Shown: positions 1 to 18,366 of the stretch, one piece after another
Layout: each line of letters starts with the position of its first letter
How positions within the stretch are numbered: position 1 is the stretch's first letter
Source of the DNA: Trypanosoma brucei
Taxonomy: Eukaryota
Direction: 5' to 3'
Assembly: GCA_000002445.1 (NCBI GenBank)
Contig: CP000071.1
Location: 448,001-512,000 of the forward strand
DNA length: 64,000 nucleotides
Position numbers and translations under genes: made by a program
Notes under the pieces: model-generated
The model's database searches: none
Told to the model about the DNA's origin: nothing
Seen by the model: only the letters and a program-made list of their open reading frames with translations

Positions 1-3000
1 TTTGGATAGTTGAACGATCTGCTGTCACGATGGGACATTAGTTCACATGTAACGAACGTCCCAGGATAACGACAACAAACGTGGGTCCGTGAAAAAACGA
101 GTTTTATACTGAGCGAAAGAATGTGCGTACATATCATCAGCATGAAATTATGTCCGACTCTCGTACAACTGACTATTTGGATGCGCCGCGGTTATACATA
201 TCCTCATCGAAATTTCTAAAGGGAGAGAACGGCTGGATCAGTGGCATGAAAATATTTGCAGCTTGTAGTGGGACGGAATGGCAATACTTCGCCCACAATG
301 CTTGGCTTTGAAGGTCGTCATAACAACGGGAAACTGTTAGGAGAGCCTAGCTCAATCAAACCAATGTAAATTAAGGCGGTGTGCTGATACGCCTGCGCAG
401 CGTACGGCCTTCTGAATATATACTTTTTAATTTCACTGTGTGGACACTGAGCAACTCACCATAGACGACTAGTTTACTTCGAGTCGTGTTAGCATTATGA
501 GGCGCCCTTCATTCTCTAGCCAGGTTATGTGGAGCAAAAACAAAAGCAACTGGGGGAGAAGTATGAAGGCGAAGTTTGGTGCTAGAACAGTATCAAATAC
601 AGTCGCGACGTTTGCGTCGGTTGCGCGCCAAAAACAGAAATTATATCATGCTAATAAACACTACTTAGCGGAAACGTCAGTATGACAGCGTGTCGACGTT
701 CCCGATGCGCGGGTAGACGGGATCGCCGTCAGATCGATTCCAGAAGAATCCCATCATTTACGTTCGGGGAAACTAAGACTCTGTTGACATGACGGTACGG
801 GGAATTGTGCGAAAGGGTACTGAGTTTGCAGCGTCTTTCCTCTGTGAGAGCTGGGTTGCGTATTCACCCTCACGGCAGTGGTGAGGAATCAGAGCACCTA
901 ACAGAGTGACCACCCTACTTCAGATACCAATACTACAAAAAAAGAAAAAGCAGGTATGTGAGAAGTGTCGATAAGAGTAACTTCCATATTTTTGCTTGAA
1001 GTTGAACATTGCGTCACATATGCACTTCTGGGAAGAACCCATACCTTTGTGAACCAACACAAACCGTGAGCAGTACTTTCAGACGTGGTGGGTGCATCCC
1101 CGGCACTGTTTTCTATTGTACGCCGCACAATAAGTAGCACCCCACCGAGCTACCAAATGCAGAACTGCGGCGGATCATCACGGACGAAAACACCAAAACG
1201 GCGTATGAATTCGCATTGCCTGGGCCCAGTAAACGCTGCAACCCATGGAGTCCTTTGATTCTTCCTTTGGAAATGTATAGAGGGGTGGAAACACTTGTTG
1301 CAGCTCTACTGCCCGGTTTGGGGTACGCCTCTGGTGTGAAGAAATAAACGGGTCGGGTTGGGAGCTTTCCATAGCGCGGTAAAAAACCATGACAGCTTCG
1401 TGTTAGTCGCTGCTCTCAGTACCGTTTAGCACAAAAGCCCGCTGTGGTGACGAACGCCCTCCAGGGCCATATGCGCCAGCATATACATGTTGTACTAACT
1501 CTTCTCGCTTCTATTGTAGCGGACATACACCCCATCTAGATTGATTCCATGCTTGGAAGTTCCGTGCATCAGCACGCCTGCGGCGTAGTATGACCTCTCC
1601 CTCTGCGCATTTGAGGGCGAACAAAAAATAGTTACAAAGCGTCAATGCTGACGCTCCTGGGCAGTGACTTGGAGGGGCGTCACTTTGGTAAGGGGCCGGT
1701 CTGCTTCTGATGGCTCGTTGTACCGCTGACGGATATGTGATTGAACATATGGTGACCGTTCTGTCGAACTGTAGGGCTTCTGTTTCTGAAAGATGATACT
1801 TCATACCACGGCAACTCTCGGGGGATAGCTTCTTATTGAGCCGGCCTCTGGTGTGGAGAGTTACTCCCCTTTTTTTCTGTCTTGGTGACAGAAGTGCGGT
1901 GCGTCCACTGTGGCAGTTGTGCACTGTATCGTACCTGAGTCTGGATGGGTAGAGGAATGATGTGCGGGAGCGCTTTCTCTGTTGCTTATGTGCTCGGCTT
2001 CGTACTGCCTTTTGACTGGGAAAGTCGGTGTTTGGAGTGTGCTGCCGTACTTTGGACGGTGGGGATTCTACTGTCCCGCGGCTTAACAAAAAAAAAAATC
2101 GTACGGTGGCACAGTCCCTGCCCACTACGGTGGATTTATGCGGTCATTACAGGGCAAAGGGTTTCTGGTTTGGATGCAGCGTGTCGCCGCTGTGTGCGCG
2201 TCGCAAACCTACTAAACGTTGTCACTTCAGCGCTACACAACGCGTAAGCCAACGCACGCAGGAAACACTTCTCATCATCTCCACTGTGTTTCCGCGGTCC
2301 TTTGCTTACCTTAGAGGGCGTGTCACGGTAGAATTTGTTGATGTGGTTCGCAATCTAATGAACTTGTCAAAAATGCTTAGCGGGGGCTGTTTTAGGGTTT
2401 GAGACAGGGGGTCAGGTGCGGTTTTAAGTTCTGTATCGTATCTTAATCGGCGTGGCATCCCGCTCTGACCTCTGTTCCGCATCCATTTCATGCGTTTCGC
2501 CTCATCTTCTTTAGCGGCGCACGCCTCCCTGGTATTGTCATGCAGGTGCCTTATTCCGCCCTGTGCGTCCCCGCCCCAAAAACGGAGCATAGCGCTATTG
2601 GCGCCTCTCTTGAAATGGCTTATCGACTCTTCGAAGCTTCCACCCATGTGAACCTGTTATCTCTTGCAACAATGCGGGTGCGCACACCTCCCCTCAAACT
2701 CAGCAGCATACCTTCTGTGGTGGGTTTCCGGCTCCAAGTTATTTCCGCAGAGTATGTGTGTGTTTAGTTGCATCAAGTGCGCCTTGTGTCGTCGTTTTGC
2801 CGGGGCGATGGTGTCGACCATTCACCCCACGTCCAGCTGCAGTTTTCTTTGGAGACTCACTCTTCGGTACGCAGCACGAGTTACATGCAAACGGCGAACA
2901 GACACAGGCGCGTAGCGTTCGAACGCGAAGGGGATCACTCATGTCCACTGCGCCAGGACCTGTCCCCTACGTCTCGAGAAATGAGCAAAAATCGACGAAG

Positions 3001-6000
3001 AGAAAGGCTTTTTGTTTGTGGTGCTTTCCTGCGCGTACGAAGCTACTCACTTTGGGAAGCCCACGTAGTATGACAACGCTGTCTTTCCGGTGCCTAAACG
3101 TCGTCGCTCAAGTCCCCTGATGGACGTTACCATCGCAATGCTAAGTGTGGCTGGTATATCTTAGTTAACTCTTCCTTCGGATGAAACTGCAGCCAGCTCC
3201 TCTTTTCGCATCATATGCGCTTCACCCCACAATATCGCACCATGCCACCGGGGTTTCATGGGAGAAATGACGTGGAATGGCAGATTGGGTGAAGGGTCAG
3301 GAAGGCATGACTCTTTCTGTGGCGGCGTATAGTGTTGATGTTTGGAAAGTTCTGCATGATCAGTCGATATCCTATACCCAGGTGCTGTGGGCGCAACGAA
3401 TGCCAGGGGCGATGGAGAGTGGAAATATCAGTTTGTGTTCACCGCCGTGCTCTTCCTCTGAGAGAAGGTGCCACAAAGCGCAGATCATCAATACTTCAAC
3501 GAAGAGAAGATAAGCTCAGTTTGAAGCGGCCGCCGAGTGTCGGCCGAGTGGTGATATCAAAATATCCCCCTACCCCACACTCCCTGCTTTCTTGGTGATT
3601 TAGCTCCGCAGCCACTCCGCCGAAACCTAATTCCGGTGGAGCGGAACGTTGACAGTTTGCCTCCCGTACCCAAAGGACTGCGAGACCTGGACACAACACT
3701 GAGGCGATAGGCATCGCCAGGAGAAAAGGCATTTGTCTTAGTTATCACTGCGTTTGGTTGGGGAAAGGGCGTGTTCCCAGTGCGGTGCTACCCAAGGCAC
3801 TTTTGTAGAACGCTGCTCATCGTTTGCTGTGCTTATCAAACCCGCCCCCTTACAAGCGAATGCCCACCAATCGGAGCCAGGGGCTGCAGGATCTCAAACC
3901 ACGTCGGCCGAAAGGTGGGGAACGCATTTCAAGGGATCACGACGCCGTTCGCTTGGAGACTTGTAACAGCGGGGGTTCAATGCCAAAAAGTTGCTCAGCG
4001 ATGCCTTTCTTAACCGACCGGAACGTCACAGAACATGAAACAGCGGCAGCGGCGCGTAGTGGTTGGCGAATAATAATAACCCCACCCCATTTTTAACATC
4101 TTTAGCAGTCCTCTCTGGGGCTATGGCTGCCAGGCGCCAACGATTTCACTATGAAGAACGGTTGTGAGGCTCGAAGTTAGTGTTTGTGAGTGTTTGAACC
4201 TCTTCGGCACGCTTCCGCACCCGGGATGAGGCAGAATAACCAGTGTGCCCACGGTGACAAAATGGCGGGACGTCGGCACAAGAGGCGGTTAAGGGATGCC
4301 AAATCGCCTGTCAAAACTAGTCGTTTTTTTTAAACCAAGGGTGCATCTCACTGAGGCCGACCAAGTGGCAGTGACGAGCCCCTTTACGAAGGCGCATTTA
4401 CCACAATGGTCCCTAAAAGAGGGCGCTAGCACACCCAAATACCAGCACCACCGAACTATAAGGCATCGATCAAACACTTTTTTGGCTGGTGGGAGCTTCT
4501 TGCCATCGACAGCTACGCCCCAGCCCACAAAGGTTTTTAAGGTAAATCCAGAAACGTTGGAAACGGGTACATTGTGCGAAGTACACGAGGAGGTCGTGCA
4601 CGCAGCCGTCGCACCGCGAGAGTTAAGGGCCTCACCTACAGATGGAGGACGACAAAAACAAACTTGCGGGAACCGGCTTTCCCAGATCGTCACAGTACGC
4701 GGGGCACGGAAAGCGAGTGCGCCGGAATGTCGGATGATGTTCAACCAGTGACCTCTCATCCACTTTGTGGAGCCCATTTGTCAGCGGCTTTATTGCCCAA
4801 CCGACCACACAACACCAATCCAAGGGTGGCACCTCCTTGCCCACTTCCGAGATGAAGACTACCACTTATAACAACGACCCTTTCCCTAAACCACCCTTGG
4901 TTTCCCAACACACGCACCTCCGAGGACATAAGCTAGGAAAATACAACCACCAATGTGCCGCACCCGGCAATACCACGGCATACCTACAAATATTCCAAGA
5001 CCTTCTGCATATCTGAACGAATAGCTGCCAGGTTGGACGCCCCAAAGGGCGGAAGTGCATCACACCACGAGGCACGCAACCTCTCGACACCAGTGCTGAA
5101 AAGCACAACCCTGTTGCCGGCACTTGCAAACCAACTGGTGTCACCACAAGCACTTCGACGAGCTGGTTTAAAAAAATCCGGCCAGCCGTCCGACAACACC
5201 TTTAAACATGAAGGGGGACGTCATGCCGCATCCATCAGTTAGAACATTTAGACAAAACATTGGGTTATTTGTTAAAAATAGATCCACAACAGCATAGTTA
5301 AAGTATAAACAAAAGATCGCCAAATACAGATTTTGGAGGGAAAACTTCGCGATGCACAAACATCAGAAACAACAGAGCTCCACACACACTCTTCAAACCA
5401 CTTCACAGTCAGCGCACCAGCGTCACATCGCAACCGTCACCCCTCCAATTGGGCATAACCCCGCTACAAACAACAATAAATTACCAGCCGCACGCGTACA
5501 AGATAAAACAACGACAACGATCACATATCACGCACTTCGACCGATCCCCACAAATCCGAAAAAAAAAAAATTACCTAAGCATATTCATTTAAAAACATGC
5601 AACAAAGAAACAAGTAAAATAAAACAATCACACAAGAGATCGCCCAATAACAGAAAAAAACGAAAATAATAATTCGATAACATCATTTAAATATCAAAAC
5701 AAAAAGGAAAAATAAACAAATAATTCAAAAGAATAATATATATAACAATTCCGATGCACATCTATTATTCCATACAAAAGGGTAGGAAAGCAAGTTATGA
5801 AGTTTCCCTGCCTCCTTCCCCATTTTTCCCTCCTTCCTTGCTGTCGTGTTGTCAGCCCTGTGCGCAAAAATTACCGTTATTGTATATGAGATCGGCCATG
5901 GTGGTAGCAACTTTTTCTGGGAGTATGGTCAGTGTGTGTTTCCTCTTGTATTTGCTTGTGTTTATGCGTGTGTGTGTTTGTGCTGGTGCCGAAGGGAGAG

Positions 6001-6108: not shown

Positions 6109-6229
6109 GGAGAGTACAACACCCCGGGTTCCAGCGCCATCACTGATCGCCGTACTAACGAGGCCTGTGGCCGCTTAACTTCACAAATCGGACGGGATAT
6201 GGTGCATTCGGCCAAGTATGGTCGTACCC
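6109..6229 (-). rRNA. 5S: 5S ribosomal RNA gene (copy 1)
   Basis: The reverse complement of 6109-6229 reads GGGTACGACCATACTTGGCCGAATGCACCATATCCCGTCCGATTTGTGAAGTTAAGCGGCCACAGGCCTCGTTAGTACGGCGATCAGTGATGGCGCTGGAACCCGGGGTGTTGTACTCTCC. This is a canonical kinetoplastid-type 5S rRNA of about 120 nt. A T6 run follows on the same strand as a Pol III terminator. The 3' end is uncertain by a few nt. Confidence 0.93.
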
Positions 6230-6843
6230 GACGTCCGGTAAACCGAATGCGTGCATTTATTCCGATACCCGTCAAACTTGTTCATGAGGGATTTGAAGTG
6301 TAGGAGACGCGAAAAAAAAAAAAAGAAAAGAAGAAAAGCACCTTTCTTACCACTCCATACCATCCCCCCTCCAGTACCTACAGACACCATTTCCATCACA
6401 CTACACGACACTAAAAAGTGGAAGAAAACATAACTTTCCTCTGAGTCCGGAGGGGGGGGGGTTGGGGGCGGATGAAACAGCCGTTCCGATGCACATCTAT
6501 TATTCCATACAAAAGGGTAGGAAAGCAAGTTATGAAGTTTCCCTGCCTCCTTCCCCATTTTTCCCTCCTTCCTTGCTGTCGTGTTGTCAGCCCTGTGCGC
6601 AAAAATTACCGTTATTGTATATGAGATCGGCCATGGTGGTAGCAACTTTTTCTGGGAGTATGGTCAGTGTGTGTTTCCTCTTGTATTTGCTTGTGTTTAT
6701 GCGTGTGTGTGTTTGTGCTGGTGCCGAAGGGAGAGAAGGGGAACTTTTAACGGCAACCAGACAGTGAAGAAACTTAGAAACGGACGATTGGCATAGATTT
6801 AACACAAGTTGAATGACGGCTGCAGCTCTAGGAAAAAAGTTTG

Positions 6844-6964
6844 GGAGAGTACAACACCCCGGGTTCCAGCGCCATCACTGATCGCCGTACTAACGAGGCC
6901 TGTGGCCGCTTAACTTCACAAATCGGACGGGATATGGTGCATTCGGCCAAGTATGGTCGTACCC
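6844..6964 (-). rRNA. 5S: 5S ribosomal RNA gene (copy 2)
   Basis: Same sequence as copy 1, offset by 735 bp. Confidence 0.92.
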
Positions 6965-7579
6965 GACGTCCGGTAAACCGAATGCGTGCATTTATTCCGA
7001 TACCCGTCAAACTTGTTCATGAGGGATTTGAAGTGTAGGAGACGCGAAAAAAAAAAAAAAGAAAAGAAGAAAAGCACCTTTCTTACCACTCCATACCATC
7101 CCCCCTCCAGTACCTACAGACACCATTTCCATCACACTACACGACACTAAAAAGTGGAAGAAAACATAACTTTCCTCTGAGTCCGGAGGGGGGGGGGTTG
7201 GGGGCGGATGAAACAGCCGTTCCGATGCACATCTATTATTCCATACAAAAGGGTAGGAAAGCAAGTTATGAAGTTTCCCTGCCTCCTTCCCCATTTTTCC
7301 CTCCTTCCTTGCTGTCGTGTTGTCAGCCCTGTGCGCAAAAATTACCGTTATTGTATATGAGATCGGCCATGGTGGTAGCAACTTTTTCTGGGAGTATGGT
7401 CAGTGTGTGTTTCCTCTTGTATTTGCTTGTGTTTATGCGTGTGTGTGTTTGTGCTGGTGCCGAAGGGAGAGAAGGGGAACTTTTAACGGCAACCAGACAG
7501 TGAAGAAACTTAGAAACGGACGATTGGCATAGATTTAACACAAGTTGAATGACGGCTGCAGCTCTAGGAAAAAAGTTTG

Positions 7580-7700
7580 GGAGAGTACAACACCCCGGGT
7601 TCCAGCGCCATCACTGATCGCCGTACTAACGAGGCCTGTGGCCGCTTAACTTCACAAATCGGACGGGATATGGTGCATTCGGCCAAGTATGGTCGTACCC
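7580..7700 (-). rRNA. 5S: 5S ribosomal RNA gene (copy 3)
   Basis: Same sequence as copy 1, at a 736 bp period. Confidence 0.92.
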
Positions 7701-8315
7701 GACGTCCGGTAAACCGAATGCGTGCATTTATTCCGATACCCGTCAAACTTGTTCATGAGGGATTTGAAGTGTAGGAGACGCGAAAAAAAAAAAAAAGAAA
7801 AGAAGAAAAGCACCTTTCTTACCACTCCATACCATCCCCCCTCCAGTACCTACAGACACCATTTCCATCACACTACACGACACTAAAAAGTGGAAGAAAA
7901 CATAACTTTCCTCTGAGTCCGGAGGGGGGGGGGTTGGGGGCGGATGAAACAGCCGTTCCGATGCACATCTATTATTCCATACAAAAGGGTAGGAAAGCAA
8001 GTTATGAAGTTTCCCTGCCTCCTTCCCCATTTTTCCCTCCTTCCTTGCTGTCGTGTTGTCAGCCCTGTGCGCAAAAATTACCGTTATTGTATATGAGATC
8101 GGCCATGGTGGTAGCAACTTTTTCTGGGAGTATGGTCAGTGTGTGTTTCCTCTTGTATTTGCTTGTGTTTATGCGTGTGTGTGTTTGTGCTGGTGCCGAA
8201 GGGAGAGAAGGGGAACTTTTAACGGCAACCAGACAGTGAAGAAACTTAGAAACGGACGATTGGCATAGATTTAACACAAGTTGAATGACGGCTGCAGCTC
8301 TAGGAAAAAAGTTTG

Positions 8316-8436
8316 GGAGAGTACAACACCCCGGGTTCCAGCGCCATCACTGATCGCCGTACTAACGAGGCCTGTGGCCGCTTAACTTCACAAATCGGAC
8401 GGGATATGGTGCATTCGGCCAAGTATGGTCGTACCC
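8316..8436 (-). rRNA. 5S: 5S ribosomal RNA gene (copy 4)
   Basis: Same sequence as copy 1, at a 736 bp period. Confidence 0.92.
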
Positions 8437-9051
8437 GACGTCCGGTAAACCGAATGCGTGCATTTATTCCGATACCCGTCAAACTTGTTCATGAGGGATT
8501 TGAAGTGTAGGAGACGCGAAAAAAAAAAAAAGAAAAGAAGAAAAGCACCTTTCTTACCACTCCATACCATCCCCCCTCCAGTACCTACAGACACCATTTC
8601 CATCACACTACACGACACTAAAAAGTGGAAGAAAACATAACTTTCCTCTGAGTCCGGAGGGGGGGGGGGTTGGGGGCGGATGAAACAGCCGTTCCGATGC
8701 ACATCTATTATTCCATACAAAAGGGTAGGAAAGCAAGTTATGAAGTTTCCCTGCCTCCTTCCCCATTTTTCCCTCCTTCCTTGCTGTCGTGTTGTCAGCC
8801 CTGTGCGCAAAAATTACCGTTATTGTATATGAGATCGGCCATGGTGGTAGCAACTTTTTCTGGGAGTATGGTCAGTGTGTGTTTCCTCTTGTATTTGCTT
8901 GTGTTTATGCGTGTGTGTGTTTGTGCTGGTGCCGAAGGGAGAGAAGGGGAACTTTTAACGGCAACCAGACAGTGAAGAAACTTAGAAACGGACGATTGGC
9001 ATAGATTTAACACAAGTTGAATGACGGCTGCAGCTCTAGGAAAAAAGTTTG

Positions 9052-9172
9052 GGAGAGTACAACACCCCGGGTTCCAGCGCCATCACTGATCGCCGTACTA
9101 ACGAGGCCTGTGGCCGCTTAACTTCACAAATCGGACGGGATATGGTGCATTCGGCCAAGTATGGTCGTACCC
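9052..9172 (-). rRNA. 5S: 5S ribosomal RNA gene (copy 5)
   Basis: Same sequence as copy 1, at a 736 bp period. Confidence 0.92.
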
Positions 9173-9787
9173 GACGTCCGGTAAACCGAATGCGTGCATT
9201 TATTCCGATACCCGTCAAACTTGTTCATGAGGGATTTGAAGTGTAGGAGACGCGAAAAAAAAAAAAAGAAAAGAAGAAAAGCACCTTTCTTACCACTCCA
9301 TACCATCCCCCCTCCAGTACCTACAGACACCATTTCCATCACACTACACGACACTAAAAAGTGGAAGAAAACATAACTTTCCTCTGAGTCCGGAGGGGGG
9401 GGGGGTTGGGGGCGGATGAAACAGCCGTTCCGATGCACATCTATTATTCCATACAAAAGGGTAGGAAAGCAAGTTATGAAGTTTCCCTGCCTCCTTCCCC
9501 ATTTTTCCCTCCTTCCTTGCTGTCGTGTTGTCAGCCCTGTGCGCAAAAATTACCGTTATTGTATATGAGATCGGCCATGGTGGTAGCAACTTTTTCTGGG
9601 AGTATGGTCAGTGTGTGTTTCCTCTTGTATTTGCTTGTGTTTATGCGTGTGTGTGTTTGTGCTGGTGCCGAAGGGAGAGAAGGGGAACTTTTAACGGCAA
9701 CCAGACAGTGAAGAAACTTAGAAACGGACGATTGGCATAGATTTAACACAAGTTGAATGACGGCTGCAGCTCTAGGAAAAAAGTTTG

Positions 9788-9908
9788 GGAGAGTACAACA
9801 CCCCGGGTTCCAGCGCCATCACTGATCGCCGTACTAACGAGGCCTGTGGCCGCTTAACTTCACAAATCGGACGGGATATGGTGCATTCGGCCAAGTATGG
9901 TCGTACCC
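9788..9908 (-). rRNA. 5S: 5S ribosomal RNA gene (copy 6)
   Basis: Same sequence as copy 1, at a 736 bp period. Confidence 0.92.
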
Positions 9909-10523
9909 GACGTCCGGTAAACCGAATGCGTGCATTTATTCCGATACCCGTCAAACTTGTTCATGAGGGATTTGAAGTGTAGGAGACGCGAAAAAAAAAA
10001 AAAGAAAAGAAGAAAAGCACCTTTCTTACCACTCCATACCATCCCCCCTCCAGTACCTACAGACACCATTTCCATCACACTACACGACACTAAAAAGTGG
10101 AAGAAAACATAACTTTCCTCTGAGTCCGGAGGGGGGGGGGGTTGGGGGCGGATGAAACAGCCGTTCCGATGCACATCTATTATTCCATACAAAAGGGTAG
10201 GAAAGCAAGTTATGAAGTTTCCCTGCCTCCTTCCCCATTTTTCCCTCCTTCCTTGCTGTCGTGTTGTCAGCCCTGTGCGCAAAAATTACCGTTATTGTAT
10301 ATGAGATCGGCCATGGTGGTAGCAACTTTTTCTGGGAGTATGGTCAGTGTGTGTTTCCTCTTGTATTTGCTTGTGTTTATGCGTGTGTGTGTTTGTGCTG
10401 GTGCCGAAGGGAGAGAAGGGGAACTTTTAACGGCAACCAGACAGTGAAGAAACTTAGAAACGGACGATTGGCATAGATTTAACACAAGTTGAATGACGGC
10501 TGCAGCTCTAGGAAAAAAGTTTG

Positions 10524-10644
10524 GGAGAGTACAACACCCCGGGTTCCAGCGCCATCACTGATCGCCGTACTAACGAGGCCTGTGGCCGCTTAACTTCACA
10601 AATCGGACGGGATATGGTGCATTCGGCCAAGTATGGTCGTACCC
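10524..10644 (-). rRNA. 5S: 5S ribosomal RNA gene (copy 7)
   Basis: Same sequence as copy 1, at a 736 bp period. Confidence 0.92.
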
Positions 10645-11258
10645 GACGTCCGGTAAACCGAATGCGTGCATTTATTCCGATACCCGTCAAACTTGTTCAT
10701 GAGGGATTTGAAGTGTAGGAGACGCGAAAAAAAAAAAAAGAAAAGAAGAAAAGCACCTTTCTTACCACTCCATACCATCCCCCCTCCAGTACCTACAGAC
10801 ACCATTTCCATCACACTACACGACACTAAAAAGTGGAAGAAAACATAACTTTCCTCTGAGTCCGGAGGGGGGGGGGTTGGGGGCGGATGAAACAGCCGTT
10901 CCGATGCACATCTATTATTCCATACAAAAGGGTAGGAAAGCAAGTTATGAAGTTTCCCTGCCTCCTTCCCCATTTTTCCCTCCTTCCTTNCTGTCGTGTT
11001 GTCAGCCCTGTGCGCAAAAATTACCGTTATTGTATATGAGATCGGCCATGGTGGTAGCAACTTTTTCTGGGAGTATGGTCAGTGTGTGTTTCCTCTTGTA
11101 TTTGCTTGTGTTTATGCGTGTGTGTGTTTGTGCTGGTGCCGAAGGGAGAGAAGGGGAACTTTTAACGGCAACCAGACAGTGAAGAAACTTAGAAACGGAC
11201 GATTGGCATAGATTTAACACAAGTTGAATGACGGCTGCAGCTCTAGGAAAAAAGTTTG

Positions 11259-11379
11259 GGAGAGTACAACACCCCGGGTTCCAGCGCCATCACTGATCGC
11301 CGTACTAACGAGGCCTGTGGCCGCTTAACTTCACAAATCGGACGGGATATGGTGCATTCGGCCAAGTATGGTCGTACCC
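11259..11379 (-). rRNA. 5S: 5S ribosomal RNA gene (copy 8)
   Basis: Same sequence as copy 1, at a 735 bp period. Confidence 0.92.
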
Positions 11380-11987: not shown

Positions 11988-12047
11988 NNNNNNNNNNNNN
12001 NNNNNNNNNNNNNNNNNNNNNNNNNNNNNNNNNNNNNNNNNNNNNNN
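11988..12047. other. Assembly gap (60 N) inside the 5S array; it replaces the position where a 9th 5S copy is expected
   Basis: A run of n characters. The expected next 5S copy (about 11994-12114) falls entirely in the gap. Isolated n bases occur at 10990 and 11898. Confidence 0.95.
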
Positions 12048-12408
12048 GTTCCGATGCACATCTATTATTCCATACAAAAGGGTAGGAAAGCAAGTTATGA
12101 AGTTTCCCTGCCTCCTTCCCCATTTTTCCCTCCTTCCTTGCTGTCGTGTTGTCAGCCCTGTGCGCAAAAATTACCGTTATTGTATATGAGATCGGCCATG
12201 GTGGTAGCAACTTTTTCTGGGAGTATGGTCAGTGTGTGTTTCCTCTTGTATTTGCTTGTGTTTATGCGTGTGTGTGTTTGTGCTGGTGCCGAAGGGAGAG
12301 AAGGGGAACTTTTAACGGCAACCAGACAGTGAAGAAACTTAGAAACGGACGATTGGCATAGATTTAACACAAGTTGAATGACGGCTGCAGCTCTAGGAAA
12401 AAAGTTTG

Positions 12409-12441
12409 GGAGAGTACAACACCCCGGGTTCCAGCGCCATC
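12409..12441 (-). pseudogene. Truncated 5S rRNA gene fragment (3'-terminal about 33 nt only) at the right edge of the array
   Basis: The sequence 'gggagagtacaacaccccgggttccagcgccatc' matches the 3' part of 5S (minus strand). It diverges at 12442 into unrelated sequence. Confidence 0.8.
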
Positions 12442-12467
12442 TCGCATAAAGACGGAAAGGGATTCTC

Positions 12468-12714
12468 TTCCACATTACCGGAGAGCAGCATCTTATTGCG
12501 GATGATACTGCTGACAGCACGCTGGCACGTGCCCAGGGACCGAAAAATGAAAAACAGTGTCCCAACAAGACGCTGCTGATCCCTGTGCTGTATGATGCCG
12601 TATCCGGAGCAAAGCAGTGTTCCCCATGAAAGGAACGCTGCTGGCTCTTGGCTTCAGCCGATGAAAGTGGGTACTGGACCCTGGCACTCGTTGAGGTTGG
12701 CGGCGTCGGCAGGG
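12468..12714. repeat. Inverted-repeat arm A (about 247 bp), partner of 13928-14174
   Basis: The reverse complement of this segment is about 90% identical to 13928-14174. Examples are ccagggtccagtacc, agccagcagcgttcctttcatggggaacactgct and ggatcagcagcgtcttgttgggacactgtttttcatt. The two arms encode near-identical peptides in the ORF track (12152..12727 minus and 13734..14282 plus). Confidence 0.85.
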
Positions 12715-13927
12715 TATTCGCGAGCAAAACACCACAGAAGGTGAGGTGGTCGGCAACCTAAAAGGAATCATTACTCAAAGAAAATAACGCCTTGGGGCTG
12801 CCCGATGGACTCGCCCTTTCGGGTCGATGGTTGCGTATGAAAACCGTTTCTCCTTTCATATCGATCCTTTGCTGCGTATGCGGAGCCGAAAACGCCGAGG
12901 GGCCACCCTTGCAACATCCGTCAATTGCGCGCACATATATTACGGCAAATGTCCCACATCCCCGTTATGGATCAGTTTGCACATATTATCGATTCCACAG
13001 CAAATCCTTGGTCGATTAAGGCGTGTTGGCTTTGCATCGCGGCATTATGAATGAGTATTACGTATCCGCGTTGGCAGAAATTAGTGCACGCACAGAGCGT
13101 CTTGGCCAGCAAGCAGCGGTGATAAATTTGGGTCGATGAGTGTTGGACGTGATGGTCTTGCGGCTACAGAAGATTGTGGCGATAAGCGAGATCAAACAAG
13201 CAAGTCCCTTAACTAAAGGTCGGAATGGCTCAGATTATTACTTTTTGCTCGGATTGGAAGGAGTGTGTGGTTTTTGCGTTTGGTGTGGATTACGACAAGT
13301 CGTCTGCTGGAGATCCCGGCACTGATACGGAAGCATTTCTAATGGAACAGGGACAGTGTAGTGCCCCTCGATTGGTTGGTGACACCCAAGACAGCCAAGT
13401 CCAATTCACACCGAGCAAGTCGTTAAGTTCGCATTCGGGGATTAGGACGCTCTCGATATTACGCGACTACTCTCCACTTTGAAGCTCAAGGAACATGTAA
13501 CAACGCTCACAACAACCAAAGTCGAACATATTCTCGCTCCGTGGGAGATGATGACGCACCCCGTTAGGAGAGGAGGCTTTACAGCATGCTGCAGGCACAA
13601 TTTGTGGAAGAGCATGGCATGGATCCTCACATTATTTTCCAACCAATGAAACACATCTATCCGTTCCGCATGCCGAGGAACACTGTCAGCCACTTGGACA
13701 AATGCACCGCCATGTTGACTAATATGTAGAATAGTGTCCCTATGGTGTAAGCCATGTCTTAGACGAAGGATAAGAGCCATGGGAGCCGCCAGGGCGTTGT
13801 CCCTTCAAGACGCACGGTTATACGATAACAAGGAGGGCGCACGCCACACGCCTGTTGAATACGCAGGACAAGGCTTCCATTCCTTTACAGCAAGTGCACG
13901 TCCCGCTGCTGGAGATATATTGAATCC

Positions 13928-14174
13928 CCTGGCGATGCCGGCCACCTCAACGTGGTGCCAGGGTCCAGTACCCCGTATCACCGGGGAAAGCAAGAGCCAG
14001 CAGCGTTCCTTTCATGGGGAACACTGCTGTGCTCCGGCTACGGCATCATACAGCACAGGGATCAGCAGCGTCTTGTTGGGACACTGTTTTTCATTTGTCG
14101 GTCCCTGGGCACGTGCCAGCGTGCTGTCAGCAGTATCATCCGCAATAAGATGCTGCTGTCCGGTGATGTGGAAC
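13928..14174. repeat. Inverted-repeat arm B (about 247 bp), partner of 12468-12714
   Basis: See arm A. The arms are separated by about 1.2 kb of unique sequence. Confidence 0.85.
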
Positions 14175-15639
14175 TCCAAAAAAGGATTGCTAATTGACAT
14201 CTTTGGGAGAGTCCAGGGTGGGGGGCTTCTCGCCCCATCTGCTGTATTCCGTTCATCTGCGGAAATACAACAAGAGTTATAGAGGGTGTGTTAGGATGAA
14301 TAAAAAAAGGGAGGCTCTGCCACAGTTGCCAGACCGATAGCATCTCAGGGCTCTACGGTGATGGCTGATGGCCGCGCCAGTGGGGGGAAACTTTCACGAA
14401 GGCACGAAGAAAATTCCAAAAAAAAAATATTGAATCATTTCTCGCTTAAATTCGAGTGTGAAATGTAGATTTCAACATCTCTGGGGACTGATCGGAATGA
14501 GACCAAAAGGGACCAGTGAAAGGAGCCCTCATGTTATTTCCATCGGCGATGATCGTCTACTTTGGAAGGTCGGTATCGTAAAGGATGCCTCCTCCGCACC
14601 AACAGGAGCTCGGGTCATCCCTTTTCTCAGTTGCAGAGGATAAACCCTCCAACGAGCGTCGCTGGTGAATTGCGGGGCCTAAAGAGAAATAACAAAAGCG
14701 GATGAACCTTACGAGGCAATTGTTCCTTTTGGAACACATTTCAAAATACCTCCATGCGGTTACTATCCTGAGTTGTCGACTTTTTCTGTCTGTTTTTTTT
14801 ATTTTTTCTTAGAGGCGTTACGTCGTCGTCTTTTGCCTCGGACAGAGAACTTGTCCCCGCCACAGAGGCCGCTTTGTTGCCACTGTCCGCACTTGGTTTA
14901 GTAAGTGGGTATTACTTTCTTGCCTGTTTAAAAAGAAGAAACGCACGGTTACACCCAATTGGGAACCCGCAGTTGATTTGGTCACAGATGGCTCTTTGAG
15001 GGGTTGTGGGTCTGGGGCATGTCTTCTTATTGGATTCCGGTGAGGTGAAAGTAATGTTATGTGGTGTCGTTGGTTTAAGTTCCCTTTTCTTATCATGCAG
15101 GCTCAGGCCCGTGTCCTCTGACTCTCCTCAGTAGCATTCGTGGAATCCTTTCCCCCTGAGTATTGACATTTGGGTTGATAATACATTCCTGTAAGGCGCG
15201 GAACCAAAAGGAAACACAAAAGCCTACGGTCTTTCTGTGGCCATGGATGAGATGTTTATGATATTTGATTTCCACAACATTAGCACAAATTACTCGTTTA
15301 ACCGCTCCGTCAGCAAACCGGCGGTCGGCTCCCGCGGAGGCACACGGTTAAACTGTGCAAAGTTGGTGAAAGAGTTTAACTGACAAAAGGAAGTGGCGGT
15401 GTCCCGAGGCTTTTGGGGACCACAAGAACTGCCCTTTCACAGGTCTACTGTGAAATAAATATTCCGCTGCTGCTTGCCACCCAAGTTTGTGTCAGATGGG
15501 TATTGATGATTATATATGGTTATACATTTAGTTTATAATTCCTTGCTCCTCGCTTTAATTATATTTAATAAGTTGACCATTCGAACCGCACCGAAACTCG
15601 TATTTTTAAAAGATTTGTTTTCACTCGTCTTGGGGTTTT

Positions 15640-16032
15640 GTAGATTTTTTTGTATTTACACTCCTTTTTATTCGTTTCAAAGTCGATAATTCTGTTGATT
15701 TTCAATTTAAATGTTGTAAAAGTATTTTTTCTCTTAAATTTATGAGATTCTTCCGTGGAGCTTCAGTTTTTTCTTTGTTATTTGTTTTGTCTTTTATACC
15801 TAAAAATATTTGGAGAGAATCAGTGTGTTTGTGTTTTTTTGTGTAATATTTACCCATATATTTCAGTGGGGAGATTACAGAAGTAATATATATATATATA
15901 AAAGATCCTTTGTATTGCTTATGTGCTTTGTCTTTAAGCGGTTGTTGCTTTTCCTTTTTAACATATATTTTTGAAACATGATTTGGCCACATATTTTTTA
16001 TATTAGTTTTATTTAAATATTCTGTAGATTGA
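15640..16032 (+). promoter_or_regulatory. Pyrimidine-rich intergenic tract with candidate spliced-leader acceptor AGs upstream of TSR1 (trans-splicing / coupled polyadenylation signal region)
   Basis: T/C-rich runs (ttttttttgtatttacactcctttttattcgtttc ... ttttttatattagttttatttaaatattctgtag) lie immediately 5' of the ATG at 16033. This is typical of kinetoplastid polypyrimidine-tract/AG processing signals. The precise acceptor is not determinable from sequence. Confidence 0.4.
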
Positions 16033-18366
16033 ATGGCACGTAATAAGGCTCACAAGCAGAGGTTTGCATCTAAACGTGCTGTTTCGGGTTTGGCAAAGGG
16101 ACGCACTATTCCAACGAAAAAGGAGAGTGTAAAAGCGCTTCATCCGTTGGAGGCCAAAGAGAGATCAAGGCAGTCTTTAGCTGCCCTGCGGGACAAGAAA
16201 AGGGCCAATGCCCTTCAACAAAAGAGAATCGGGAAAATATCCGGGTTGCCTCGGGCTGTTGGTGTTCTACCAGCAAATGAATCGGCTAACACGAACGCGG
16301 TCATTCGGGGCTTGTGCTTTTCTTTGGGGAGTGAAGTTCGTGACACTTGCCTCCCGTTCACTGCAAGTTCGAAAGAAAAGAAGGCATCTTTTACATTTAT
16401 GTCAGAGCGGAATGGCAATCTTCAGAGTTGTGTTGACATCGGTAAGGTCGCTGACTTTTTGGTGTTAGCACTGGATGTCTCGCGATCCGTACAGGAAATG
16501 ATACGTAACGTGCAAGAATCTATGGAAGTAGAAGATTGTGATGATGTTGGCTCCGTTGTGGCTACTACATGGTACGGAGATATTGGTCTTTGTATCACTG
16601 CGTTCACAAGAGAGCTGATTGCAGCTCTTAATGCCCAAGGGGTGCCGAGTGTAGCTGTAGTACTGCAAAATCTTGATACGTTCACTGAAAAGCAGCGTCA
16701 TAAAGTTATTAAGGTTCACCAGCGTTACTTTTTATCTGTTCTCCCTGAAACGACGAAGGTATTTACTGTGATTGATCAGGGTGACTATGACCCGGTGCTT
16801 CGGCATCTCCATGTCGCTAAACTTCGTTCACTAGCATGGCGTGATCAACATCCGTATTTGATAGTGGAGGAGGGATATTTTGATGATGATGCTCAAAAAC
16901 TTGTCGTAGGTGGTTACCTTCGTGGCATGGCACTCTCGGCCGAGCAATTGATTCACCTCACAAACCACGGGACGTTTCAGATTGAGAACATATGCCGGGG
17001 GGACCCAAGGGGTGATGAAGCCCAGGTTATTGATTCGTGTGAGAAGGCACACAGAGAGTCACTTGACTACGTTCAAGTGAATGCCACTCTTGACGATGCA
17101 GACGGACCAACTGAGGAAGATATTGCCTATCACAAATCAATAGGATTCAAAAAGGTCAAAGTTCCAGAGGGTGTATCTGATTACCAGGCAGCATGGTATG
17201 AATTCGAGGGTAGTGATATAAACTCGGAGACAGATATTGGTGAATCGGTACCGGGGGACGATGAGTATGCTGCGTCTGATCACTTTTCTCAGGGGACTTT
17301 AAGAACAACAGTTGACTTTCTTAAGGTGGAGGATGTAATTCGTTTGGAGCGGATGAACGACGACGAACGAGCTGCGGAAATACAGAGACTTAAAGAGGAG
17401 AGTGAAGAAGATGCGTGGAATCCAGATATTGTAGACACACCTTTCAATCTACCAGCAAGGCAAAGATTTATGAAATATCGCGGACTCAAGAGCTTCCAAA
17501 CGGGTAAATGGGACGCGGCGGAGAATCTCCCGCCACATTACGCTTATATTTACAAGTTACAGGGCATAACCCGCATTCGTGAGGCAGCGCTAGCGAAATG
17601 CGCCAGTGGAAGTGTCGCAACTGAGCAATTTGTGTATATAACACTCGTGGATGTTCCAAGTAAGGTCTGGAGAAGCGCTGTCGAAGGCGGTTGCATTATT
17701 GCATCGGGTCAGCTGGAGCATGAGCAGAAATGGTCAGTCCTTCACTTTAGGATTCAAAGGAGCTCGGATTGCGATGAACCAATTAAGTCAAAAATACCTA
17801 TGCTCGCTCATATAGGTTTTAGGAAGTTTTACGTGTCACCCATCTTCAGTGACATTACTACCTCAGATCGTACGAAGTTTGCCCGCTTTTTTCATCCAAA
17901 CGAAAAATTTTGTATGGCGAGTTTTTTTGGCCCTATATCGTATCAGCCTTGCCCTATTCTTTTGTTTGAAGTTCCGTCACTGGAGGAGCAGAATGAGGAC
18001 AATTCATTGCATTTGGCTTGCTTTGGAGGGGCACTACCGCCAAATCCAGACCTGTTGGTGCTCAAGCGTGCGGTACTGACGGGAAGAGTAGCGACTATTC
18101 ACAAAAAACAAATTGTAGTCAAATACATGTTTTTCAACGACGAGGACGTGCAGTGGTTTCAATCTGTGGACCTTCGCACTCGGTTGGGGAGACGTGGGAA
18201 AATAATAAAGGCTGTGGGAACTCGTGGGCTGTTTAAAGCATCCTTGAACGATCAGGTAATGCAGCATGATCTTGTTTGCATGGATCTTTATAAGCGTGTC
18301 TTCCCGAAGTGGACAACTTTGCCGTTTTGCATTTCGGATGTTCCGAAAGTTGTTGCCGAAGAGTAG
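16033..18366 (+). CDS. TSR1: Ribosome biogenesis protein TSR1 (BMS1/TSR1 family, AARP2CN/DUF663 C-terminal domain, no P-loop)
   Basis: A 777-aa ORF with an ATG start. The N-terminus is basic (MARNKAHKQRFASKRAV...). No GxxxxGKS P-loop is present, which argues against BMS1. The C-terminal region (VLTGRVATIHKKQIVVKYMFFNDEDVQWFQSVDLRTRLGRRGKI) is typical of the BMS1/TSR1 C-terminal domain. Confidence 0.8.
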   Translation: MARNKAHKQRFASKRAVSGLAKGRTIPTKKESVKALHPLEAKERSRQSLAALRDKKRANALQQKRIGKISGLPRAVGVLPANESANTNAVIRGLCFSLGSEVRDTCLPFTASSKEKKASFTFMSERNGNLQSCVDIGKVADFLVLALDVSRSVQEMIRNVQESMEVEDCDDVGSVVATTWYGDIGLCITAFTRELIAALNAQGVPSVAVVLQNLDTFTEKQRHKVIKVHQRYFLSVLPETTKVFTVIDQGDYDPVLRHLHVAKLRSLAWRDQHPYLIVEEGYFDDDAQKLVVGGYLRGMALSAEQLIHLTNHGTFQIENICRGDPRGDEAQVIDSCEKAHRESLDYVQVNATLDDADGPTEEDIAYHKSIGFKKVKVPEGVSDYQAAWYEFEGSDINSETDIGESVPGDDEYAASDHFSQGTLRTTVDFLKVEDVIRLERMNDDERAAEIQRLKEESEEDAWNPDIVDTPFNLPARQRFMKYRGLKSFQTGKWDAAENLPPHYAYIYKLQGITRIREAALAKCASGSVATEQFVYITLVDVPSKVWRSAVEGGCIIASGQLEHEQKWSVLHFRIQRSSDCDEPIKSKIPMLAHIGFRKFYVSPIFSDITTSDRTKFARFFHPNEKFCMASFFGPISYQPCPILLFEVPSLEEQNEDNSLHLACFGGALPPNPDLLVLKRAVLTGRVATIHKKQIVVKYMFFNDEDVQWFQSVDLRTRLGRRGKIIKAVGTRGLFKASLNDQVMQHDLVCMDLYKRVFPKWTTLPFCISDVPKVVAEE

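What the first reader, a model, noticed from the sequence alone, without database searches (positions are those of the whole stretch)
12409..14174. Array terminates in a truncated 5S gene abutting a 247-bp inverted-repeat pair that brackets 1.2 kb of unique DNA
The right edge of the array cuts a 5S gene after its 3' 33 nt. Only 27 bp later begins arm A of an inverted repeat (12468-12714). Its partner, about 90% identical, is at 13928-14174. Inverted repeats flanking about 1.2 kb resemble the footprint of a foldback or mobile element, a palindromic recombination junction, or a hairpin-forming boundary element. No transposase or RT-like ORF is present inside; the internal ORFs are short and unrecognisable. 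This structure sits exactly at the junction between a Pol III array and the presumptive start of a Pol II unit.
Basis: seen in the sequence. Interest (0 to 1): 0.55.

Follow-up and report, generated by a model that had tools for sequence, protein, structure and literature searches.

The report
Two ingi/RIME retroposon copies head-to-head
The "inverted repeat" beside the Trypanosoma brucei 5S rRNA gene array is two separate copies of the well-known ingi/RIME retroposon family facing each other: a complete 501-bp RIME and a broken-off 5' end of an ingi, so it is ordinary, already-described mobile DNA rather than a new element or boundary device.

Summary
Window 12468-12714 and 13927-14173 are 247-nt inverted copies, 92% identical, found nowhere else in the window. 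A 31-nt 5S remnant (12411-12441) lies 26 nt from arm A.

The interpretation needs changing. The window is T. brucei chromosome 8. A 5,256-bp ingi non-LTR retrotransposon from T. equiperdum matches the window in exactly three places:
- ingi nt 1-248 = arm B (95.6%)
- ingi nt 5010-5256 = 14180-14428 (92.4%), directly after arm B
- ingi nt 1-287 = arm A and beyond, on the minus strand (88.9%)

Arm B is therefore the 5' half of a complete 501-bp RIME (13927-14427), with an A10 tail and the canonical 12-bp target-site duplication (11 of 12 bases match). Arm A is the first ~275 nt of an ingi, joined to 5S nt 89-119 at a short microhomology.

The repeat ends where it does because RIME lacks the ingi interior. 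The 1.2 kb between the arms is host DNA lying between two independent insertions.

Two minor extras: the ingi/5S crossover point differs between strains, and some sites suggest gene conversion between the arms.

Verdict: an already known kind of element, of low interest. A role for the RIME Pr77 promoter, or a hairpin siRNA role, remains untested.

The parts
6111..11379 (-). Eight complete 5S rRNA genes in a ~736-bp tandem repeat (the array body)
   Evidence: Rfam RF00001, 89.1 bits for each copy. This matches the single 5S cluster with eight genes on chromosome 8 of the T. brucei 427 reference described in PMC5359979.
11988..12047 (.). 60-N assembly gap inside the array; true copy number is unresolved
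   Evidence: N-run listing. Sequence after the gap (12048-12441) is 5S spacer, 100% identical to the earlier repeats.
12411..12441 (-). Truncated 5S gene: the 3' 31 nt only (5S nt 89-119)
   Evidence: Exact match to positions 89-119 of the full copies. Identity to the neighbouring repeat stops after 12441.
12428..12441 (-). ingi/5S junction inside an imperfect microhomology (ingi GATGCAGTGGAAC vs 5S GATGGCGCTGGAAC). The window crosses over at GATG (12438-12441); T. equiperdum and T. b. gambiense cross over at TGGAAC.
   Evidence: Three-way alignment of ingi, arm A and 5S. Direct print of the junctions in three genomes.
12442..12714 (-). 5' fragment of an ingi retroposon (element nt 1 to about 273, or 277 if the shared GATG is counted), 3'-truncated at the 5S junction. 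It includes arm A (12468-12714).
   Evidence: BLAST to T. equiperdum ingi nt 1-287, 88.9%, E = 2e-103. It continues past the RIME deletion point with ingi-specific GAGAATCCC...GCG.GATG.
12639..12714 (-). Degenerate Pr77 hallmark of the ingi fragment. The downstream promoter element at +25..+28 reads CGAG instead of CGTG, there is a 1-nt deletion, and 14 of 77 positions differ from the RIME copy.
   Evidence: The DPE definition comes from PMC4748587.
12715..13914 (.). 1.2 kb of single-copy host DNA between the two element 5' ends; no recognisable gene or retroposon remnant
   Evidence: Only a self-hit in the window. 97.5% identical to T. equiperdum. No Pfam hits for its ORFs. No tblastx match to ingi or to the T. 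theileri element.
13915..13926 (+). Left copy of the RIME target-site duplication, ATATATTGAATC
   Evidence: A 12-bp duplication is characteristic of Tbingi/TbRIME (PMC3820030).
13927..14427 (+). Complete RIME, 501 bp: 5' half 13927-14173 (arm B), a 6-nt junction 14174-14179, 3' half from 14180 (the ingi match runs to 14428), A10 tail 14418-14427
   Evidence: ingi nt 1-248 at 95.6% and ingi nt 5010-5256 at 92.4%. RIME is defined as ingi minus its central 4.7 kb (PMC2323293).
13927..14003 (+). Near-consensus Pr77 hallmark of the RIME, pointing toward TSR1, with the DPE CGTG intact at 13951-13954
   Evidence: The first 15 nt (CCCTGGCGATGCCGG) compare with the L1Tc 5'Pr77 primer CCCTGGCTCAGCCGG (PMC4748587).
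14425..14436 (+). Right copy of the target-site duplication, AAATATTGAATC (11 of 12; a 10-nt exact core ATATTGAATC at 14427-14436, overlapping the end of the A tail)
16033..18366 (+). TSR1 (pre-rRNA-processing protein), the first long ORF (>=180 aa) of the + strand gene cluster, 1.6 kb downstream of the RIME
   Evidence: ORF list. 100% identical to T. b. equiperdum TSR1, with Pfam AARP2CN and RIBIOP_C domains.

Best explanation
The inverted repeat is a by-product of two independent copies of the Trypanosoma brucei ingi/RIME retroposon family lying head to head.

(1) Shown. Window 13927-14427 is a complete RIME, the 0.5-kb non-autonomous deletion derivative of ingi. It carries the features expected of target-primed reverse transcription: it starts at element nucleotide 1, ends in an A10 tail, and is flanked by a 12-bp target-site duplication.

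(2) Shown. Window 12714 to 12442 on the minus strand is the first ~275 nt of an ingi. It carries ingi-specific sequence beyond the point where RIME's internal deletion begins.

(3) Follows directly from (1) and (2). Homology between the two copies can extend only over the ~247 nt that ingi and RIME share at their 5' ends. This fixes the arm length and the abrupt outer ends of the repeat.

(4) Inferred. The rest of the ingi was lost in a microhomology-mediated deletion or recombination. This joined ingi nt ~274-287 to nt 89-102 of a terminal 5S gene and produced the "truncated 5S".

(5) Inferred from site patterns. The two arms have since exchanged short tracts by gene conversion in individual T. 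brucei lineages.

The structure has no demonstrated function of its own. It could have side effects. The intact Pr77 promoter of the RIME points at the TSR1 gene cluster. A transcript spanning both arms could also fold into a ~247-bp double-stranded RNA.
For: Organism. TSR1 at 16033 is 100% identical to the T. b. equiperdum protein. The same layout is present in T. equiperdum (L001) and in T. b. gambiense DAL972 (L008).

Reference element. L007 7501-12756 is 5,256 bp and encodes an APE endonuclease, an RNase H domain and a weak, below-cutoff C2H2 zinc-finger match. Published ingi length is 5.25 kb (PMC2323293).

Matches to the window. The reference element hits the window in exactly three places: nt 1-248 = 13927-14173 (95.6%), nt 5010-5256 = 14180-14428 (92.4%), and nt 1-287 = 12714-12428 (88.9%).

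RIME features. A10 tail, and duplication ATATATTGAATC / AAATATTGAATC placed exactly at both ends. A 12-bp duplication is the family rule (PMC3820030).

Arm A is ingi, not RIME. After ...GATGTGGAA it continues GAGAATCCC..., as ingi does. The RIME continues CTCCAAAAAAGGATTGC, as the ingi 3' end does.

Related species. The T. theileri ingi-like element starts at the same nucleotide 1, with 71% identity and E = 3e-22.

Junction. GATG or TGGAAC is shared by ingi and 5S, and the crossover point differs between strains.

Gene conversion.
- Both window arms carry T, G, A at element nt 200, 201, 220, where all four arms of the other two genomes and the reference ingi carry C, A, C.
- T. equiperdum arm B carries arm A's states at nt 72, 90, 160, 162, while T. 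b. gambiense arm B keeps the ingi state.
Against: - Only one full ingi copy was available as a reference, not a family consensus. Divergence figures and "ancestral" states are therefore approximate.
- The deletion mechanism is inferred from a 4-6-nt perfect microhomology (13-14 nt imperfect). A microhomology that short could be chance.
- The shared-site patterns could also come from conversion by a third ingi/RIME copy elsewhere in the genome. They could also be cross-arm read mis-mapping during assembly polishing.
- The window junction lies 394 bp from a 60-N gap in a collapsed repeat. Its exact sequence, which differs from the other two genomes, might be an assembly effect.
- No empty (pre-insertion) site was recovered for the RIME.
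Confidence: 0.93

Rival explanations
1. A single foldback, MITE-like or DNA-type element whose terminal inverted repeats are the two 247-bp arms and whose cargo is the 1.2-kb interior.
For: The geometry fits: two 92%-identical inverted arms bracket 1.2 kb. A 3-nt CTC is present on both outer flanks, read directly from the sequence.
Against: - The arms start at nucleotide 1 of a non-LTR retroposon at their inner ends, so in a TIR element they would face the wrong way.
- Arm B is continuous with a RIME 3' half, a poly(A) tail and its own 12-bp duplication. Arm A is continuous with ingi interior.
- The CTC on the left flank is itself ingi sequence.
- No DNA transposons or MITEs have been described in trypanosomatids (PMC3820030).
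Confidence: 0.02
2. A local inverted duplication (palindromic recombination junction) that copied one 250-bp segment next to the 5S array.
For: The arms share derived states within a genome, which shows they do exchange sequence. The array edge is clearly a recombination junction.
Against: - The homology limits coincide exactly with retroposon landmarks: element nt 1 and the RIME deletion point.
- Each arm is embedded in a different element type.
- The RIME has an intact duplication showing independent retroposition.
- Six arm-specific differences are shared by orthologous arms across genomes; all six recur in the third genome, T. b. gambiense. The arms are therefore old, separate lineages.
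Confidence: 0.03
3. The pair has been co-opted. Either read-through transcripts fold into a hairpin that feeds the RNAi pathway against ingi/RIME, or the RIME's Pr77 promoter helps launch Pol II transcription of the TSR1 gene cluster. These are functions added on top of the retroposon origin.
For: - The arms can form a duplex of about -484 kcal/mol with perfect runs of 60, 58 and 38 bp.
- T. brucei inverted repeats and ingi/RIME are documented siRNA sources (PMC3447711).
- The RIME Pr77 is near consensus with an intact DPE, and it points at TSR1, which starts 1.6 kb past the RIME's 3' end.
- Pr77 elements at polycistron starts have been proposed to fire Pol II (PMC3383444, PMC4748587).
Against: - This locus is not among the seven siRNA-producing inverted repeats, nor among the "miscellaneous" loci, of Tschudi et al. 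2012. Those repeats are 422 bp or longer and at least 99% identical.
- The arms are only 92% alike, and arm A's Pr77 is decayed.
- No expression data are available here.
- Reads from about 150 genomic ingi/RIME copies cannot be assigned to this locus.
- Pr77 promoter activity was shown for T. cruzi L1Tc, not for this RIME.
Confidence: 0.12

Closest known systems
TbRIME (ribosomal mobile element), the non-autonomous partner of ingi in T. brucei
   Same: Window 13927-14427 has the full RIME anatomy:
- ingi 5' ~250 nt fused to ingi 3' ~250 nt
- about 0.5 kb in total
- Pr77/79-bp signature at nt 1
- A-rich tail
- 12-bp target-site duplication
(PMC2323293, PMC3820030)
   Different: Nothing structural. 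It is 4-8% diverged from the single ingi copy used as reference, against a published median RIME divergence of 4% from consensus. One duplication base has mutated.
Tbingi (5.25-kb autonomous non-LTR retrotransposon, ingi clade)
   Same: Window 12714 to 12442 (minus strand) matches ingi nt 1 to ~275, including sequence beyond the RIME deletion point.
   Different: Only the first ~5% of the element is present. There is no APE/RT/RNase H coding region, no poly(A) tail and no duplication. The 3' boundary is a junction with a 5S gene, not an insertion end. Its Pr77 is degenerate, with the DPE reading CGAG.
Pr77 hallmark / L1TcRz (internal Pol II promoter plus HDV-like ribozyme at the 5' end of L1Tc/ingi-clade elements)
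   Same: Both arms begin with the hallmark. The RIME copy has CCCTGGC... and CGTG at +25..+28, as described for ingi/RIME in PMC4748587.
   Different: Activity was demonstrated for T. cruzi L1Tc and for several SIDER and L1Tco copies, not for this locus. Arm A's copy carries mutations in the DPE.
siRNA-producing long inverted repeats IR1-IR7 of T. brucei (Tschudi et al. 2012, PMC3447711)
   Same: An inverted repeat in T. brucei chromosomal DNA that could give a fold-back RNA. There is some evidence that the arms are homogenised.
   Different: Those repeats are 422-10,011 bp and 99-100% identical. This one is 247 bp and 92% identical, is built from dispersed retroposon sequence, and is not in their list.

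Membership tests
TbRIME | The 5' half equals the first ~250 nt of ingi | tested here: met
   13927-14173 vs ingi nt 1-248, 95.6%, E = 6e-111
TbRIME | The 3' half equals the last ~250 nt of ingi; the central 4.7 kb is absent; total length is ~0.5 kb | tested here: met
   14180-14428 vs ingi nt 5010-5256, 92.4%. The element is 501 bp. Definition from PMC2323293.
TbRIME | A 3' A-rich tail and a 12-bp target-site duplication | tested here: met
   A10 at 14418-14427. ATATATTGAATC vs AAATATTGAATC, 11 of 12, exactly at both ends. The 12-bp rule is from PMC3820030.
TbRIME | Dispersed multicopy family | tested here: met
   Further copies were found at a distant chromosome 8 locus of T. equiperdum: L007, one full ingi plus a separate inverted 3'-half fragment. 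Whole-genome copy number was not counted here; the literature gives about 70-86 RIME copies.
Tbingi (arm A element) | 5' signature followed by ingi-specific sequence past the RIME deletion point | tested here: met
   88.9% over ingi nt 1-287. There is an exact GAGAATCCC right after the point where the RIME diverges. The T. equiperdum and T. b. gambiense orthologues follow ingi closely (36 of 39 positions) through GATGCAGTGGAAC.
Tbingi (arm A element) | APE / RT / RNase H coding region, poly(A) tail and duplication | tested here: not met
   No other ingi homology in the window by blastn or tblastx. The element ends at a 5S junction. It is therefore a fragment, not a complete member.
Pr77 hallmark | A 77-79-nt signature at element nt 1, with the DPE CGTG at +25..+28 | tested here: met
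   Met for the RIME copy (CGTG at 13951-13954). Not met for arm A (CGAG plus a 1-nt deletion) (PMC4748587).
HDV-like ribozyme (L1TcRz type) | Nested double-pseudoknot fold with self-cleavage upstream of nt 1 | tested here: inconclusive
   MFE folding of the first 80 nt gives z-scores from -0.74 to +1.07, which is not informative because the fold is pseudoknotted. Rfam has no hit. Cleavage needs an in vitro assay.
Foldback / TIR (DNA-type or MITE) element | Inverted repeats at the outer termini of one unit, with a duplication flanking the whole unit | tested here: not met
   The duplication flanks the RIME only (13915-26 / 14425-36). The arm outer ends coincide with the RIME deletion point, and the arm inner ends are element nt 1.
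T. brucei siRNA-producing long inverted repeats (IR1-7) | Arms of at least 422 bp, 99-100% identical, yielding AGO1-bound small RNAs | tested here: not met
   The arms are 247 bp and 92% identical. The locus is absent from Table 3 and from the miscellaneous list. Small-RNA output is not testable with these tools.

The most novel reading that the evidence does not exclude
The head-to-head ingi/RIME pair at the 5S/TSR1 boundary is kept partly homogenised by gene conversion because it is used. It could be a natural hairpin locus that primes RNAi against ingi/RIME. Alternatively, the intact Pr77 of the RIME could be a start site for Pol II transcription of the downstream polycistron.
Probability: 0.1. 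Interest if true: 0.45.

Novelty: already known. Interest (0 to 1): 0.14.

Why it matters
Mostly as a clarification. A feature that looks like a novel foldback or boundary element is two copies of the best-known T. brucei retroposons. This is consistent with the published picture that ingi-clade elements gather at polycistron boundaries.

The small new points are the microhomology junction between an ingi and a 5S gene, its strain-specific crossover point, and possible arm-to-arm gene conversion. These illustrate how repeat edges are remodelled in a genome that (from general knowledge) relies on microhomology-mediated joining, but they do not change current understanding.

The locus would become interesting only if the RIME's Pr77 were shown to initiate the TSR1 polycistron, or if the pair were shown to seed siRNAs.

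Tried and rejected
- Rfam at gathering threshold and at E <= 10 on 12300-16100: only the 5S genes and two chance-level snoRNA-like hits. No ribozyme family matched.
- ARAGORN: no tRNAs in the window.
- Pseudogene hypothesis: I asked whether the 1.2-kb interior or the arms are relics of the genes that lie upstream of TSR1 in T. vivax (F-box protein, amino-acid transporter). tblastn found nothing below E = 0.3.
- Pfam on the 191-aa and 182-aa ORFs that run through the arms, and on two interior ORFs: no hits. The two long ORFs are mirror images created by the repeat.
- TbSIDER1/TbSIDER2: considered because of their ~570-bp size. Their published sequences (supplement of PMC4035085) share only the signature, whereas ingi/RIME match at 92-96%.
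- Tschudi 2012 siRNA locus lists: this locus is not there.
- MFE folding of Pr77: uninformative.
- Exact-protein look-ups for the window TSR1, the T. congolense orthologue and the TREU927 orthologue returned no contig. The T. equiperdum OVI contig starts only 545 bp upstream of TSR1. The closest outgroup and a fourth T. brucei genome could therefore not be compared.
- The 11-mer TTTGGGAGAGT, shared by the RIME 3' half and the 5S 3' flank, was judged to be chance, because it is part of the conserved ingi 3' end.
Full report
**What was checked first**

The inverted repeat is real.
- The repeat finder reports arms 12468-12655 / 13986-14173 at 96% identity, with two weaker inner extensions.
- BLAST of the arm against the whole window gives 12468-12719 vs 14173-13922 at 92.1% over 253 columns, E = 6e-102. 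There is no other copy in the 64 kb, and the 1.2-kb interior is single copy.
- Rfam finds eight complete 5S rRNA genes on the minus strand, 6111 to 11379.
- After a 60-N assembly gap (11988-12047), one more repeat unit runs into a 5S remnant. The remnant is 31 nt long (12411-12441, equal to 5S nt 89-119).

**Organism and context**

- The first long ORF to the right (16033-18366) is the ribosome-biogenesis protein TSR1. It is 100% identical to the Trypanosoma brucei equiperdum protein.
- All large ORFs from there to the end of the window are on the + strand. No ORF of 205 aa or longer lies in 1-5700.
- The literature places the single T. brucei 5S cluster on chromosome 8, with eight genes in the Lister 427 reference (PMC5359979). 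This matches the window.
- The same array edge, both arms and the same interior are present in T. equiperdum (L001, 97% identity) and in T. b. gambiense DAL972 (L008, 96.7%).

**The lead**

I compared the region upstream of TSR1 in other trypanosomes.
- T. vivax has ordinary genes there.
- T. theileri has a degenerate non-LTR retrotransposon with endonuclease, RT and RNase H ORFs.
- The 234 nt just upstream of the T. theileri endonuclease ORF match arm B at 71% (E = 3e-22), and match arm A in reverse.

That pointed to the 5' end of the ingi/L1Tc clade.

**The decisive test**

Using the T. theileri endonuclease ORF as a query, I retrieved a T. equiperdum endonuclease-RT protein and its locus.
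- L007 7501-12756 is a 5,256-bp element that encodes an APE endonuclease, an RNase H domain and a weak C2H2 zinc-finger match below the Pfam cutoff. This is the published size of ingi (5.25 kb; PMC2323293).
- This ingi matches the window in exactly three places:

| ingi nt | window | identity |
|---|---|---|
| 1-248 | 13927-14173 (arm B) | 95.6% |
| 5010-5256 | 14180-14428 | 92.4% |
| 1-287 | 12714-12428, minus strand (arm A and 39 nt beyond) | 88.9% |

**Anatomy of arm B**

- 13927-14427 is ingi's first ~250 nt fused to its last ~250 nt, 501 bp in all, ending in an A10 tail. [quoted passage not shown]
- It is flanked by ATATATTGAATC (13915-13926) and AAATATTGAATC (14425-14436), with a 10-nt exact core sitting precisely at both ends.
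- A 12-bp target-site duplication is characteristic of Tbingi/TbRIME (PMC3820030).
- Arm B is therefore part of an independent, complete retroposition event.

**Anatomy of arm A**

- In element orientation, arm A starts at nt 1 (window 12714). After ...GATGTGGAA, where the RIME switches to the ingi 3' end, it carries on with GAGAATCCC..CCGTC.TT..GCG.GATG, as ingi does. It therefore derives from an ingi, not from a RIME.
- It ends at a junction with the 5S remnant.
- Ingi reads GATGCAGTGGAAC at this point, and 5S nt 89-102 reads GATGGCGCTGGAAC. The window sequence switches from ingi to 5S at the shared GATG.
- T. equiperdum and T. b. gambiense keep ingi sequence up to the shared TGGAAC and switch there.
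- I infer that the ingi was truncated by a microhomology-mediated deletion or recombination with a terminal 5S gene. From general knowledge, T. brucei lacks classical end joining and repairs breaks by microhomology-mediated joining.
- I also infer that the few bases between the two microhomology blocks were later overwritten in one lineage, most simply by conversion from neighbouring 5S repeats in the window strain. An assembly effect near the gap cannot be excluded.

**Why the repeat looks the way it does**

- The two copies can be homologous only over the stretch that ingi and RIME share at their 5' ends.
- The arms are therefore 247 nt long. Their inner ends are element nucleotide 1, and their outer ends coincide with RIME's deletion point.
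- The 26 nt between arm A and the 5S remnant are ingi interior.
- The 1.2 kb between the arms is host DNA between two insertions. It has no match to ingi, to the T. theileri element, or to the T. vivax genes upstream of TSR1, and its ORFs have no Pfam hit.
- This rules out a single foldback or TIR element, and it rules out a simple inverted duplication.

**State of the two Pr77 hallmarks**

- The first 77 nt of ingi-clade elements form the Pr77 hallmark. It is an internal Pol II promoter whose essential downstream element CGTG lies at +25..+28. At the RNA level it is an HDV-like ribozyme (PMC4748587, PMC4035085, PMC3383444).
- The RIME copy is near consensus, with CGTG at 13951-13954, and it points toward TSR1.
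- Arm A's copy reads CGAG, has a 1-nt deletion, and holds 14 of the 19 differences between the arms (Fisher p = 1e-4).
- MFE folding cannot assess the pseudoknotted ribozyme, and Rfam has no matching model.

**Exchange between the arms**

I aligned both arms from three genomes.
- Six sites separate A-type from B-type arms in all genomes. These are old, arm-specific differences.
- At element nt 200, 201 and 220, both window arms carry T, G, A. All four arms of the other genomes, and the reference ingi, carry C, A, C.
- At nt 72, 90, 160 and 162, T. equiperdum arm B carries arm A's states, while T. b. gambiense arm B keeps the ingi state.
- Parallel identical mutations at this many sites are not expected by chance: roughly 0.03 sites per comparison, from the private-change rates.
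- The simplest reading is short gene-conversion tracts between the arms in separate lineages. Two alternatives cannot be excluded here: conversion from a third ingi/RIME copy, and cross-mapping of reads between the arms during assembly polishing.

**Possible function**

- If one transcript spanned both arms, it could form a ~247-bp duplex (about -484 kcal/mol, with perfect runs of 60, 58 and 38 bp).
- T. brucei inverted repeats and ingi/RIME are known siRNA sources (PMC3447711).
- However, this locus is absent from that study's list of seven inverted repeats, which are 422 bp or longer and at least 99% identical. It is also absent from its miscellaneous loci.
- The idea that Pr77 elements at polycistron starts launch Pol II has been proposed (PMC3383444, PMC4748587) but has not been shown for T. 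brucei RIME.
- Both roles are untested add-ons, not needed to explain the structure.

**Verdict**

The feature is a complete RIME and a 5' ingi fragment in opposite orientation at the edge of the 5S array. These are members of a family described since the 1980s, in a genomic setting already known to collect such elements. Novelty: already known. Interest: low.

Noticed in passing
window 11988-12047 and 12048-12441: A 60-N scaffold gap sits inside the 5S array. The contig after the gap restarts at the same repeat phase as the array's left boundary (5749). The 5S copy number is therefore unresolved or collapsed, and the terminal unit is joined to the array only by scaffolding. T. equiperdum and T. 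b. gambiense each have a 100-N gap in their arrays.
   Followed up: partly
window 12428-12441 vs L001 ~6385-6400 and the L008 equivalent: The ingi/5S crossover point differs between genomes. The window crosses at GATG, leaving a 31-nt 5S remnant. T. equiperdum and T. b. gambiense cross at TGGAAC, leaving about 17-23 nt. This suggests a short conversion tract from neighbouring 5S repeats, or an assembly effect.
   Followed up: yes
window 12468-12714 / 13927-14173 and orthologous arms in L001 and L008: Site patterns are consistent with gene conversion between the two arms in separate lineages (element nt 72, 90, 160, 162 in T. equiperdum; nt 200, 201, 220 in the window strain). Orthologous arms differ by 5-8% between genomes, against 2.5-3% for the flanks.
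   Followed up: yes
L006 2069-~7300 (T. theileri) and L005 1666-7262 (T. vivax): The region just upstream of TSR1 is not syntenic among trypanosomes. T. theileri has a degenerate ingi-like element in the same orientation as the RIME. T. vivax has an F-box-like gene and an amino-acid transporter gene. Neither locus has 5S genes. The site looks like a synteny breakpoint that has been occupied independently by retroposons.
   Followed up: partly
window 1-5748: About 5.7 kb to the left of the 5S array has no ORF longer than 204 aa, and no gene is called in the equivalent T. equiperdum stretch. It ends in a very A-rich tract (about 5560-5750) abutting the array. It was not determined whether this is a strand-switch region or decayed sequence.
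   Followed up: no
L007 6812-7056 (T. equiperdum chr 8, ~1.285 Mb): An inverted ingi/RIME 3'-half fragment (88% to the window RIME 3' half) lies about 450 bp upstream of the full ingi used as reference. This is another example of opposed retroposon pieces sitting close together.
   Followed up: no
window 12152-12727 (-) and 13734-14282 (+): Two of the longest ORFs in the region (191 and 182 aa) run through the arms and share a mirror-image peptide segment. They have no Pfam hits and are best regarded as artefacts of the repeated retroposon sequence.
   Followed up: yes
window 14456-14534: A weak SNORD2-like Rfam match (20.2 bits against a gathering score of 37, E = 2.1) lies just downstream of the RIME. 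It is treated as chance.
   Followed up: no
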